A stretch of DNA of 34,186 nt from a virus (IMGVR_UViG_3300010384_000021:1-34186); one strand, 5' to 3'. Positions 6,794 through 9,132 are shown, counted from the first letter of the stretch. Numbers and translations: made by a program. The notes: generated by a model not told the origin, from the letters alone.

Positions 6794-6878
6794 TCCGCGA
6801 AATTTGAATACCAGACGCGGAAATCATCCGCGTTTCTTGAATTTTAAGGCTTGCAAACGTCCGCGAAATGCGTATACT
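6794..6878 (+). promoter_or_regulatory. Sigma70-type promoter and operator-like repeats of the moron cassette
   Basis: TTGCAA (6851-6856)-N16-TATACT (6873-6878); TCCGCGAAAT at 6794 and 6860; palindrome ACGCGGA-N5-TCCGCGT at 6815-6833. Confidence 0.6.
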
Positions 6879-6902: not shown

Positions 6903-7370
6903 ATGCGCACTCACGAAAAGCAGGCCGAACAGTTCATCGCCCTCATCGAGAAGGCAGGCGGTTCCGTCTCGTTCTCCAAGGCGCAGACCGGGACGGTCTA
7001 TGTAACCGTCGAAGGTTCCTTCAAGGCCCGCTTTGCCGATCATGGCGAGTGCTACTGCAACGAAGACGTTTCCGTTGACCCGCAGGGTGTTTCGATGCTC
7101 CAGGCGCTCCGGTCCTGCGCCAAGGCCACCGGTCTTGATCTTTCCCGTTCCATCAAGGCTCGTGAGGCTATCGAGCGCCGCCAGAACGAAGCCGCCGCCG
7201 TGCTGAACGCTGAACTGGCCGTCATTGCCGCCGAAAGCGCCCTGATCGCAGAAGTTCGCCGGGACACACAGCGCTCCGCCATTCTCGCACGCTGGCCTGA
7301 CTATGACAGCTTCCCAGCCAAGAAGCGTCAGCGCTGCCGCCACAAGATCAATCAGGAGATGGGCCTGTGA
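6903..7370 (+). CDS. Hypothetical protein of moron cassette (155 aa, MRTHEKQAEQF...)
   Basis: GGAG RBS before ATG 6903; normal composition; opposite strand to the late operon; contains RFADH-ECYC. Confidence 0.75.
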   Translation: MRTHEKQAEQFIALIEKAGGSVSFSKAQTGTVYVTVEGSFKARFADHGECYCNEDVSVDPQGVSMLQALRSCAKATGLDLSRSIKAREAIERRQNEAAAVLNAELAVIAAESALIAEVRRDTQRSAILARWPDYDSFPAKKRQRCRHKINQEMGL

Positions 7371-7573
7371 CCGCCGAGCAATTCTGCCTCTGGCTGGACG
7401 AGATGAAGGCCGCCGGACTGACAAGGTCGGATGCCGATGCCGGACGGCGGCTCGGGAAGTCGACGGACCGCATCGTCTTCTACAAGAAGAACGGCGCTGA
7501 CATCACCGTCGCCCTCGCCTGCCGCGCCCTCTTGCATCGCATGCAGCCTTATGGTTCAATCTCTCCGCTCTGA
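7367..7573 (+). CDS. Small HTH-like protein (68 aa)
   Basis: GTGA coupling with AGGAG RBS; MTAEQFCLWLDEM...DAGRRLGKSTDRIVFY...VALACRAL pattern typical of small XRE/Cro-like proteins. Confidence 0.7.
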   Translation: MTAEQFCLWLDEMKAAGLTRSDADAGRRLGKSTDRIVFYKKNGADITVALACRALLHRMQPYGSISPL

Positions 7574-7680
7574 GGCTACGGCCTCGGCGCGTTTTCTGAA
7601 CTGCACTTGCTGGGATACGGTCATCTGTAGTTGCCGGTGCTCCGGTGCTGGTTAACACGGCCTAGATGCCACCAAATAAG

Positions 7681-7709
7681 GCCCTCGCTACGGCGGGGGC
7701 TTTTCTTTT
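7681..7709 (+). terminator. Rho-independent terminator of moron transcript
   Basis: GCCCTCGC-TACG-GCGGGGGC followed by TTTTCTTTT. Confidence 0.75.
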
Positions 7710-7715
7710 GCCTCT

Positions 7716-7984
7716 ATGGCTGGGGATGCGAGGCGGTCGAGCTATCATTCGGAGTCCAGTGTCGTCCGAAAGCCCCAATACGTATCGGCTCTAGAACCGG
7801 TCGCGCTGGCCGCCCTGGCTTCGCCTCGCATCTGTTGCCGTCATGGACGGCGAATTGAATGGGCGTTCCGGCGTGGCTCAGGTTTGCGATTATCCGTGTC
7901 GCCTACCGGGAAGGAGCAACGGCGGGCCGGGTTGCAATCCCTCTGTCCGCGATCCTGTCCAACTCGATCCGCTCTCGCGGAAAC
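7716..7984 (-). ncRNA. Candidate structured RNA segment in the late leader
   Basis: Perfect 11-bp stem 7725-7735/7822-7832 enclosing nested stems; further hairpins at 7835-7854, 7929-7941 and 7946-7981; no credible ORF. Confidence 0.4.
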
Positions 7985-8061
7985 TGGTTGCGGTGGCGGG
8001 ATTTGAACCCGCGTCCTCTTGGTTATGAGCCAAGCGAGCTACCGGACTGCTCCACACCGAC
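7985..8061 (-). tRNA. tRNA-Met(CAT), initiator-like body with atypical acceptor stem
   Basis: GTCGGTGTGGAGCAGTCCGGTAGCTCG-CTTGG CTCATAA CCAAG-AGGAC-GCGGGTTCAAATCCCGC-CACCGCAACCA; 77 nt, encoded CCA, D arm like tRNA-fMet. Confidence 0.85.
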
Positions 8062-8065
8062 AAGA

Positions 8066-8092
8066 ATCAGAAAGGCCGCCGAAGCAGCCCCT
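8066..8092 (-). terminator. Terminator-like UUCG hairpin in the late leader, just upstream of the tRNA
   Basis: Minus-strand GGCTGC-TTCG-GCGGCC-TTTCT. Confidence 0.55.
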
Positions 8093-8179
8093 CACCGCGA
8101 CACAGCTTCGCCTTCCGCTGGTTGCGATTCCCAGCATCAGGCCGGGCCTATGGCCCCGATCACCCGTATCGCGCCGCAG

Positions 8180-8207
8180 AGTTTAAGCGCTGTGCGCTTA
8201 CTGTCAA
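8180..8207 (-). promoter_or_regulatory. Late promoter (pR'-like) with palindrome in the spacer
   Basis: TTGACA (8207-8202)-N16-TAAACT (8185-8180) overlapping the NusG-like stop codon; TAAGCGC-N3-GCGCTTA palindrome at 8184-8200. Confidence 0.7.
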
Positions 8208-8896
8208 GATGCGGCCTTGAGGAACTCAAATGGTACAGTGATCGTTTCTGTCGCCGCCTCAAGGCTATCGAGCAGCACTTTCACCTGATCCTGATCGTCC
8301 CATCCCTGCACCGTCGCCTCGTGGCCGGCCTTGTCGCCCCAGATCAGCCGCACCTCCCTTCCGGGGAACAACTTCTTCTTCGCGCCCTTGATGATGCCTT
8401 TGCGCTTCTCTCGCTCAAGGCGCTCGCCGGCTTTGGAAAGACTGTCGGCCTTGGCTTGCGCCACCGCCCGGCTGTTCTGCTCGTACATGCGCAGACGGAA
8501 CAGGTCCAAGGCGCTGATGGCGAACGGCTGGCCGCAATTGTCGACCACACCACGGACGCCGACGACCTCATAGAGGCGCAGCCAGTCCCAATCCGACAAC
8601 TCGACAAAAATATAGCCCTTGAGCAGGGCGAAGCGGCGAAGCTCATAAAGGCCGGATTTCTTCCGGTTCCGCACCGCCATGTATTCGGCCGGCATGTAAT
8701 GGACGAAGCCGGCGATATCGAGATTTGCCTCGATCTTCGAACGATCCGGGGTGAGCGCCGAGGCGATGGTGTAGCCCCTTCCCCGCGTCTGCCCTTTGAG
8801 AGCCGACTCGCTCGGTTCCGGCCAACGCTCACGGTGCGGAGCCTGGAACCCCGGCATCGTCCGCACCGCGTACCAGTTGCCTTCCGCCTTCGCCAT
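8204..8896 (-). CDS. NusG-paralog transcription antiterminator (NGN + KOW), probable late-gene activator (230 aa)
   Basis: WYAVRTMPG, LLKGYIFV and VVGVRGVV (NGN domain); FPGREVRLIWGDKAGHEATV (KOW-like); occupies the position of lambda Q. Confidence 0.88.
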   Translation of the reverse strand: MAKAEGNWYAVRTMPGFQAPHRERWPEPSESALKGQTRGRGYTIASALTPDRSKIEANLDIAGFVHYMPAEYMAVRNRKKSGLYELRRFALLKGYIFVELSDWDWLRLYEVVGVRGVVDNCGQPFAISALDLFRLRMYEQNSRAVAQAKADSLSKAGERLEREKRKGIIKGAKKKLFPGREVRLIWGDKAGHEATVQGWDDQDQVKVLLDSLEAATETITVPFEFLKAAS

Positions 8897-8913
8897 GTCC
8901 TCGTGTCCTCGTG

Positions 8914-9132
8914 TCAGCGAAATTTCGGGTGCGTGATAGCGGTCAGGATCATGTCTTCCGCGATCATCTTGTTCGTATGCTGGGACCGGCCGATATTGAC
9001 GATTGCCACGATGCCGGTAGGTTCATGCGTGGCGCGGACCCCGCCATGTGTCCCGACCATCTGCCCGCCAACGCGATTTCTGCCGCCGTCAGGCCAAGCC
9101 TCGAATGTGATGCCAGCCGAAAGGTCGCTCAT
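8914..9132 (-). CDS. Stand-alone class I release-factor (RF-1/peptidyl-tRNA hydrolase) GGQ domain protein (72 aa)
   Basis: GGQMVGTHGGVRATHEPTGIVAIVNIGRSQHTNKMIAEDMI aligns by eye with RF1/RF2 domain 3 (GGQHVN...VRITHLPTGIVV...RSQHKNK); GGAGG-type RBS, ATG 9132 two nt after the upstream stop. Confidence 0.85.
   Translation of the reverse strand: MSDLSAGITFEAWPDGGRNRVGGQMVGTHGGVRATHEPTGIVAIVNIGRSQHTNKMIAEDMILTAITHPKFR

What the first reader, a model, noticed from the sequence alone, without database searches (positions are those of the whole stretch)
7716..9132. Candidate coupled late-switch/translation module: GGQ protein, NusG paralog, promoter, terminated leader, tRNA-like RNA and structured RNA
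Seen: these elements are contiguous and co-oriented on the minus strand just before terS. Established: NusG/RfaH KOW domains contact ribosomal protein S10 and couple transcription to translation, and GGQ domains act on P-site tRNA. Inference: three translation-linked parts clustered at the early-to-late transition may form one system. It could remodel or rescue translation during late expression, or counter host defences that stall ribosomes or cleave tRNA-fMet (for example enteric VapC toxins). Adjacency alone does not prove a shared function.
Basis: inference. Interest (0 to 1): 0.75.

Follow-up and report, generated by a model that had tools for sequence, protein, structure and literature searches.

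The report
Phage NusG late switch with leader
This phage carries its own copy of the transcription factor NusG next to a conserved two-hairpin leader RNA and pause-like site that likely load it onto host RNA polymerase to switch on the virion genes, while the neighbouring mini release-factor gene and tRNA are optional passengers rather than parts of one coupled translation module.

Summary
The parts are real; the proposed translation-coupled module is not supported. The 72-aa GGQ gene lies beside this NusG family in 3 of 59 loci, all three found through the GGQ gene. It precedes NusG in 8 of 22 GGQ contexts. tRNA-Met follows in 9 of 59.

- It covaries and has no Rfam match.
- It occurs in 63 of 72 NusG loci (22 of 31 outside model training) and in 0 of 12 loci with other genes in that slot.
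- In the window's clade it ends in a consensus-pause 12-mer with a GCGAAGC hairpin, like RfaH ops and UpxY opsX, followed here by a terminator.

Best reading (0.7, untested): the paralog takes lambda Q's role as late antiterminator and is loaded at this leader. Side findings: an initiator-type tRNA with a conserved acceptor-stem bulge, and RNA cassettes with fixed frames and swappable interiors. My searches found no paper on this; this scan noted similar NusG-leader units on other DNA (e1-9708739, e1-3285152, e1-5327916).

The parts
8914..9132 (-). Stand-alone release-factor domain 3 (GGQ) mini gene, 72 aa; accessory, not part of the conserved switch
   Evidence: co-occurrence
8204..8896 (-). 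Phage NusG paralog, 230 aa: NGN domain with an N-terminal insert, a long basic linker helix (residues 129-175) and a beta KOW domain; predicted late antiterminator
8180..8207 (-). Sigma70-type late promoter overlapping the nusG stop codon; its spacer holds a 7-bp palindrome (8200-8184)
   Evidence: (53 of 63 leaders have a promoter of at least 8/12 upstream; control 25 of 1260)
8163..8172 (-). Conserved 5' motif at the predicted transcript start (GYGATWYG), shared with loci that carry other regulator families
8139..8165 (-). Leader hairpin P1 (bulged stem), covarying
8117..8135 (-). Leader hairpin P2 (UCGCA/UCAC-type loop), covarying
8101..8112 (-). Consensus-pause 12-mer GGCGAAGCTGTG, 15 nt after the base of P2, with a possible non-template DNA hairpin GCGAAGC (ops/opsX-like)
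8070..8093 (-). Intrinsic-terminator-like hairpin directly after the pause site
   Evidence: by eye also in L003, L005, L167, L168; a strict scan finds one in only 8 of 48 loci
7985..8062 (-). Initiator-type tRNA-Met(CAT) with one extra pyrimidine between positions 2 and 3 of the acceptor stem; accessory
7837..7980 (-). RNA cassette A: conserved hairpin, conserved frame, 100-nt variable interior, second conserved hairpin; accessory
7727..7830 (-).

Best explanation
A phage NusG paralog, a sigma70 promoter and a covarying two-hairpin leader form a conserved unit in the position of lambda Q and pR', and the protein likely acts as the late antiterminator, loaded onto host RNA polymerase at that leader. 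Steps: (1, shown) the gene ends the replication block; the promoter and leader follow, and they stay together even when other genes are inserted between them and nusG. (2, inferred) Host sigma70 polymerase starts near 8173, makes P1 and P2, and pauses 15 nt past P2 at the ops-like site. Without the phage protein it stops at the terminator at 8093-8070. (3, inferred) The paralog is recruited to the paused complex by the non-template GCGAAGC hairpin and/or the RNA hairpins, probably through its NGN insert and basic linker helix. It then travels with polymerase through the roughly 16 kb of head, tail and lysis genes (length assumes the contig is circularly permuted). (4, shown) The GGQ gene, tRNA and RNA cassettes are gained and lost independently of this unit. 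(5, inferred) The GGQ protein is a decoder-less release-factor domain that most likely hydrolyses peptidyl-tRNA on stalled or split ribosomes, as an accessory gene.
For: Covariation: 16 leaders, 96% of cells paired, 6 pairs with two-sided changes, 0 of 500 shuffles as high, slid controls 30-46%. RNAalifold finds the same two hairpins unaided. 50 model-aligned leaders: 92% paired, 11 of 14 pairs two-sided (alignment fitted to the structure). Association: 63 of 72 NusG loci, 22 of 31 outside training; 0 of 12 loci with other genes in that slot (model R2; model R1). RNA-first search: 4 hits in 151 genomes, 3 directly downstream of a NusG paralog. Slot exchange with unrelated families, one weakly DUF6456; DUF6456 is the annotation of GafA homologs (PMC9638019, passage), whose C-terminal homolog GafZ is an antiterminator (10.1101/2024.11.20.624540, section 10). 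Pause site in the window's clade: G-10 16 of 16, Y-1 16 of 16, G+1 15 of 16, at 14-15 nt from P2; GC-NNN-GC in 12 of 16, GCGAAGC in 10 of 16. Compare ops GGCGGTAGCGTG (PMC5995543, passage) and opsX YGCGNAGCR with an upstream pause hairpin (PMC11685472, passages). The fold is NusG-like. Linker residues 156-178 have a median of 8 K/R against 2 D/E.
Against: No experiment; no expression data. Gene and leader are linked, so co-inheritance alone could explain part of the association. 41 of the 63 leaders were hand-picked training sequences. 9 of 72 loci had no hit: 4 have under 400 nt downstream, 5 do not (L211, L212, L213, L222, L228; some look like variants by eye). One RNA-first hit (L301) has no nusG within the 1,287 nt available. 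The G-10 and DNA-hairpin features hold only in the window's clade; many other leaders keep only the YG. A strict scan finds a terminator within 625 nt of the leader in only 8 of 48 loci (controls 0 and 2 of 48). RNAalifold found no structure on the mixed 38-sequence MAFFT alignment, in which the two subgroups are misregistered. The window's own minimum-energy fold pairs the 5' motif with the pause motif at the cost of the outer P1 stem.
Confidence: 0.7

Rival explanations
1. The leader is a protein-independent antiterminator RNA like HK022 put, binding RNA polymerase directly. The NusG paralog is linked but acts separately, for example by excluding host NusG and Rho.
For: Same size and layout as put: about 70 nt, two stem-loops, next to a promoter, with a pause at a fixed distance downstream (PMC9378689, passages). 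The leader stays with the promoter when genes are inserted after nusG (up to 1.8 kb away).
Against: Not found in 12 loci with other genes in the slot. The leader subtype follows the NusG clade, as a cognate pair predicts, although linkage predicts the same.
Confidence: 0.12
2. One reading: the GGQ protein, NusG paralog, tRNA-Met and structured RNA form one system that couples late transcription to translation rescue or counters tRNA- or ribosome-targeting defences.
For: All parts are adjacent and co-oriented here. 4 further distinct loci carry GGQ, a NusG-family gene and tRNA-Met (L028, L032/L033, L044, plus L042 with another regulator). The GGQ gene abuts the regulator gene at 17-34 nt.
Against: GGQ in 3 of 59 and tRNA-Met in 9 of 59 NusG loci. 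GGQ precedes non-NusG genes in 14 of 22 contexts. Contigs of close relatives skip the GGQ gene or the tRNA (short joints of 21-25 letters, weak). The uS10 loop L1 aromatics are not kept.
Confidence: 0.06
3. The paralog is a promoter-proximal switch rather than a processive factor: it relieves (or, late in infection, enforces) a pause or terminator in the leader only, with the covarying promoter-spacer palindrome as part of the control.
For: A 7-8 bp spacer palindrome with differing stems in the 7 closest loci, and a relative that changes only the loop. Pause and terminator lie within 100 nt of the start.
Against: The palindrome is absent from most other loci. Characterised specialised NusG paralogs activate long operons (PMC7819879, passages).
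Confidence: 0.1

Closest known systems
UpxY with opsX (Bacteroides CPS operons; PMC11685472, passages read)
   Same: Locus-specific NusG paralog; leader pause site with an upstream hairpin-encoding region and a GCG-N-AGC non-template DNA hairpin. The window has GCGAAGC at the matching position.
   Different: Phage late operon. The gene lies upstream of the promoter, not first in the operon. Two covarying RNA hairpins; no UpxZ partner seen; NCBIfam UpxY score 25.7 against a cut-off of 100.
RfaH with ops (Enterobacteria; PMC5995543, PMC7819879, passages read)
   Same: 12-nt consensus pause starting GGCG and ending TG, with a small DNA hairpin in the middle.
   Different: Different hairpin core. 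An RNA element travels with it. The KOW domain is predicted as beta, not the autoinhibitory alpha form. RfaH score 24.6 against a cut-off of 144.5.
LoaP with the dfn leader hairpin (Bacillus velezensis; PMC12691694, passages read)
   Same: Leader RNA hairpin plus downstream pause plus intrinsic terminator. Many relatives have a NNCG (often UNCG) tetraloop on P1.
   Different: Two hairpins with bulges; the window's P1 has a triloop; phage context; RNA binding untested.
Lambda Q / Q21, BaGTA BrrG, CcGTA GafZ late antiterminators (10.1101/2024.11.20.624540 abstract and sections 8, 10; PMC11150451 passages)
   Same: Genomic slot and predicted role: regulator, late promoter, terminated leader, virion operon.
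   Different: Unrelated fold (NusG). The conserved 5' motif is not an evident NANNNT element.
HK022 put RNA (PMC9378689, passages read)
   Same: About 70-nt two-stem nascent RNA beside a phage promoter with a distance-fixed pause.
   Different: put needs no phage protein and follows early promoters. No Rfam match here.
Phage stand-alone RF-1 domain proteins (PHROG 20323) versus ArfB/YaeJ and PrfH
   Same: Release-factor domain 3 fold, GGQ and RSQ motifs.
   Different: No decoding domain and no ArfB-type basic tail. GGQxxG in 63 of 70 short relatives where cellular factors have GGQHVN.

Membership tests
NusG family | NGN domain | tested here: met
   Pfam NusG 29.4 bits against cut-off 22.2; Foldseek hits to NusG/RfaH, best E 2e-9
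NusG family | C-terminal KOW beta-barrel | tested here: met
   AlphaFold strands 181-228; profile alignment to the M. tuberculosis NusG KOW
uS10-coupling NusG/RfaH | KOW loops L1 (F141, F144) and L2 (I164, F165, R167) that insert into uS10 | tested here: inconclusive
   Residues from 10.1101/2020.03.01.971028. L1 aligns to polar or charged residues. In L2 one Leu (L212) is kept in 43 of 44, followed mostly by an acidic residue; the L2 mapping is by eye. Binding not tested.
RfaH | Equivalog score | tested here: not met
   TIGR01955 24.6 against 144.5
RfaH | ops sequence GGCGGTAG..TG | tested here: not met
   Window site is GGCGAAGCTGTG: pause positions kept, core differs
RfaH | Autoinhibited alpha-helical KOW | tested here: inconclusive
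   Best model has a beta KOW; one prediction cannot exclude fold switching
UpxY | Subfamily score | tested here: not met
   NF033644 25.7 against 100
UpxY-like mechanism | Leader pause with GCG-N-AGC DNA hairpin and upstream hairpin region | tested here: met
   In sequence only: GCGAAGC in 10 of 16 clade members, 14-15 nt after P2
Processive antiterminator | Protein-dependent read-through of downstream terminators | not testable with these tools
   Needs reporter or in vitro transcription
LoaP-like mechanism | Protein binds the leader RNA hairpin | not testable with these tools
   No protein-RNA test available
HK022 put | Rfam match; protein-independent antitermination | tested here: inconclusive
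   No Rfam family other than tRNA above gathering score, best other E 0.24; protein independence not testable
ArfB/YaeJ | Basic C-terminal extension needed for activity (PMC3950681, abstract) | tested here: not met
   Protein ends a few residues after the domain 3 helix
RF1/RF2/PrfH | Full-length factor with decoding domain | tested here: not met
   72 aa; NCBIfam scores 27-34 against cut-offs 167-423
Phage stand-alone RF-1 domain family | About 70-aa GGQ domain in viruses | tested here: met
   PHROG 20323 E 4e-4; Atlas clusters 69-93% viral; GGQ invariant in 18 of 18; no close copy in 401 host-order genomes, where the best hits are full-length factors
Initiator tRNA-fMet | CAU anticodon, A11-U24, unpaired 1:72, intact G2-C71/C3-G70 | tested here: inconclusive
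   CAU and A11-U24 present. The acceptor reads either as two mismatches or as U1-A72 with a bulged U after G2. The initiator criteria are recalled.

The most novel reading that the evidence does not exclude
Rhizobiales phages use a fourth class of late switch: a NusG paralog loaded by a composite signal, a two-hairpin nascent RNA plus an ops-like DNA hairpin pause, with leader subtypes giving phage-specific protein-RNA pairs. The switch gates a late leader that serves as a plug-in array of small RNAs (a bulged initiator tRNA and fixed-frame cassettes with swappable interiors) that may act as decoys or substitutes against tRNA-targeting defences.
Probability: 0.3. Interest if true: 0.8.

Novelty: new variant of a known kind. 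Interest (0 to 1): 0.58.

Why it matters
Known phage late antiterminators are Q-type proteins, and the characterised specialised NusG paralogs in the papers I read (RfaH, LoaP, UpxY, TaA, ActX) serve chromosomal or plasmid operons. A NusG paralog in the Q slot with a defined, covarying RNA and pause signal would be a new way for phages to time virion synthesis. It also gives a compact system, about 100 nt plus one gene, to ask whether NusG paralogs read RNA, non-template DNA or both. Natural leader subtypes could supply orthogonal antiterminator parts for rhizobia. The result also removes the GGQ and tRNA 'translation module' as a hypothesis for this locus.

Tried and rejected
A 17-base P1 pattern in viral contigs gave mostly chance matches. 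A longer gapped leader pattern gave 0. The genome-contig scan with A2 found no confirmed locus and with A4 only one. tblastn of both proteins against annotated phages gave no match for NusG and one unannotated match for GGQ. The GGQ profile in 401 host-order genomes found only full-length release factors among the listed best hits. Automatic placement of P2 by single-sequence folding was unreliable and was replaced by the alignment-based count. RNAalifold on the mixed alignment gave no structure. The antisense count for cassette B is not an independent control because the pattern is self-complementary. No RNA holder was listed for the region, so expression is unknown. ARAGORN at a relaxed threshold called no tRNA in 17 cassette sequences. 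A 5'-motif/3'-motif long-range pairing was not counted. No complex prediction was run. The careful tree did not finish; the quick tree is used. No integrase was found among the 41 window ORFs scanned against PHROGs, so the phage's lifestyle is undetermined. Ten literature searches found no paper on a phage NusG-paralog late switch, this leader, or a tested phage mini-GGQ protein. Subscription papers are not covered and no supplements were read; the supplementary tables of PMC7593976 and PMC12429752 may list such prophage genes.

Full report
Setting. The window is a 34-kb phage contig with terminase, P22-like portal, scaffold and coat genes. Named relatives of the NusG paralog lie in Mesorhizobium, so the host is probably a Rhizobiales bacterium (inference). 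The finding sits between the replication block (helicase, methylase, RusA, replication protein) and the packaging genes.

Observation. The GGQ ORF (9132-8914), NusG paralog (8896-8204), promoter (8207-8180), leader with terminator-like hairpin (8093-8070), tRNA-Met(CAT) (8061-7985) and a structured element (7832-7724) are present. They are not directly before terS: a convergent two-gene cassette and a terminator lie between.

Co-occurrence test. I fetched loci around the NusG paralog and, separately, around the GGQ gene. Of 109 NusG loci including the window, 72 were kept after dropping duplicate contigs and fragments by eye. The GGQ gene lies upstream in 3 of the 59 with at least 600 nt upstream (window, L028, L043), all three first found through GGQ. 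tRNA-Met lies downstream in 9 of the 59 with at least 1.5 kb. A broader GGQ profile found no further copies. In the quick tree the window is nested in a 20-row clade where none of the 17 others with at least 300 nt upstream has GGQ.

From the other side, 29 GGQ loci make 22 distinct contexts. The next gene is a NusG-family protein in 8, phrog_21451 (weak DUF6456 hits in 2 of 4) in 4, phrog_15385 in 3, DUF6362 in 1, and something else in 6 (one of the 6 was not scanned). So the GGQ gene is an accessory that favours the slot before the late regulator, whatever its fold. Contigs from public runs include joints that skip the GGQ gene or the tRNA, but those joints are short and count as weak support.

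What is conserved. Downstream of the promoter every close relative carries the same leader: a 5' motif, a bulged hairpin P1, a hairpin P2 and a 3' motif. On 16 leaders of the window's type, 96% of cells pair and 6 of 16 pairs change on both sides; 0 of 500 shuffles score as high and slid controls give 30-46%. RNAalifold finds the same two hairpins. A model trained only on this type finds the second type at the right place (L193, L208, E about 4e-8). Two models together hit 63 of 72 loci. 41 of these were training sequences; 22 of the other 31 were hit, and 4 of the 9 misses have under 400 nt downstream.

A sigma70-like promoter precedes 53 of 63 leaders, against 25 of 1260 random positions. 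The leader stays with the promoter when genes are inserted after nusG (up to 1.8 kb away), so it is not a feature of the nusG mRNA end. It was not found in 12 loci with other genes in the slot (model R2, filters off). More distant NusG subfamilies gave weak hits at the equivalent place. An RNA-first search of 151 bacterial genomes gave 4 hits, 3 directly behind a NusG paralog; the fourth lies near a contig end in a genome that has the gene at another contig end. Rfam has no match.

Mechanistic clue. In the window's clade a 12-mer ends 14-15 nt after the base of P2 with G-10 in 16 of 16, Y-1 in 16 of 16 and G+1 in 15 of 16; its middle is GC-NNN-GC in 12 of 16 and GCGAAGC in 10 of 16. RfaH is recruited at the consensus pause GGCGGTAGCGTG through a non-template DNA hairpin (PMC5995543, passages). 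Bacteroides UpxY proteins are recruited at pauses with YGCGNAGCR hairpins and an upstream hairpin-encoding region (PMC11685472, passages). LoaP needs a leader RNA hairpin, aided by a downstream pause, to read through a leader terminator (PMC12691694, passages). That 14-15 nt equals the RNA held inside polymerase is recalled knowledge.

The protein folds as NGN, a 47-residue helix and a beta KOW (pLDDT 87), matches NusG and RfaH structures, and has a basic linker. It fails the RfaH and UpxY family cut-offs, so it works like them at most. Against the model: the G-10 and DNA hairpin are not kept outside this clade; a strict scan finds a leader terminator in 8 of 48 loci only; linkage can mimic cognate pairing; and nothing was tested at the bench.

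The uS10 premise. E. coli NusG binds uS10 through F141, F144, I164, F165 and R167 (10.1101/2020.03.01.971028, passage). Aligned through the M. tuberculosis protein, loop L1 here is polar or charged. In L2 one Leu is kept (mapping by eye). This is inconclusive and leans against coupling.

The GGQ protein. It is release-factor domain 3 alone, with GGQ invariant in 18 of 18 close relatives and GGQxxG in 63 of 70 short GGQ-bearing representatives. It belongs to a largely viral family already annotated in PHROGs. It lacks the basic tail that YaeJ needs (PMC3950681, abstract). Peptidyl-tRNA hydrolysis on stalled or split ribosomes is the likeliest activity (inference, about 0.5); how it is targeted is unknown.

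tRNA and cassettes. 7 of 13 distinct tRNA-Met copies, including the window's, have an acceptor that reads as the host-type initiator plus one inserted pyrimidine after G2. Prophage tRNA-Met/fMet genes are already reported in Sinorhizobium (PMC12429752, passages); the passages I saw do not mention the bulge. Behind the tRNA lie two cassettes with fixed frames and mostly unrelated interiors. Cassette A occurs in 7 loci with interiors of 59-136 nt (one pair shares a short match). Cassette B occurs in 10 with interiors of 46-88 nt, and its outer pair covaries T-A/A-T in 10 of 10 (loci chosen because they showed a frame). In an unselected count cassette B had 9 hits downstream in 96 loci, 0 upstream and 0.5 expected. 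A public contig keeps cassette B unchanged and replaces the interior of A. One interior looks tRNA-derived by eye (L267). These cassettes occur with other regulator families too, so they are not part of the NusG unit.

Verdict. The conserved core is a NusG paralog, promoter and two-hairpin leader with an ops-like pause, probably a Q-replacing late antiterminator (0.7). Ten literature searches found no description, within an open-access library and without supplements. Earlier notes of this scan describe similar units on other DNA and stand-alone phage GGQ proteins; they are unchecked and not counted as support. New variant of a known kind; interest 0.58.

Noticed in passing
window 8200-8184 (-); L001, L003, L005, L167, L168, L169: A 7-8 bp palindrome fills the late-promoter spacer and overlaps the -10. 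Stems differ between phages but stay complementary, and a relative changes only the loop. It could be a cruciform or an operator.
   Followed up: partly
window 8062-7985 (-); L028, L032, L044, L196, L201, L204: Initiator-type tRNA-Met with a conserved extra pyrimidine in the acceptor stem (7 of 13 distinct copies); a possible way to evade acceptor-stem-reading toxins, untested.
   Followed up: partly
window 7980-7727 (-); L003, L006, L218, L258, L259, L267 and others: RNA cassettes with fixed frames and swappable structured interiors in late leaders, found with several regulator families; one interior (L267) looks tRNA-derived.
   Followed up: partly
window 6903-7573 (+): Convergent two-gene cassette (155 aa and 68 aa) with its own promoter-like site (6851-6878) and terminator (7678-7703) inside the late leader; no Pfam, PHROG or NCBIfam hit, and no Atlas hit for the larger protein.
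   Followed up: partly
L021, L025, L029, L031, L034, L035, L037, L042: phrog_21451, phrog_15385 and DUF6362 proteins occupy the same slot as the NusG paralog, most before a promoter and the same 5' motif; candidates for unannotated Q-like late regulators.
   Followed up: partly
L024, L025, L028, L029, L031, L032, L035, L037, L042, L044, after the GGQ stop: A conserved linker of about 30 nt joins the GGQ gene to whichever regulator follows; it was found in 2 of 75 NusG loci, both with GGQ, so it belongs to the GGQ cassette.
   Followed up: partly
L019, L020, L032, L041, L044 downstream of nusG: More distant NusG subfamilies have a different first hairpin but, in several, a P2-like second hairpin; a related leader family not modelled here.
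   Followed up: no
L008, L012, L181 directly after nusG: ORFs that look like HNH endonucleases (by eye) are inserted after nusG; in L008 and L012 they separate it from the late promoter.
   Followed up: no
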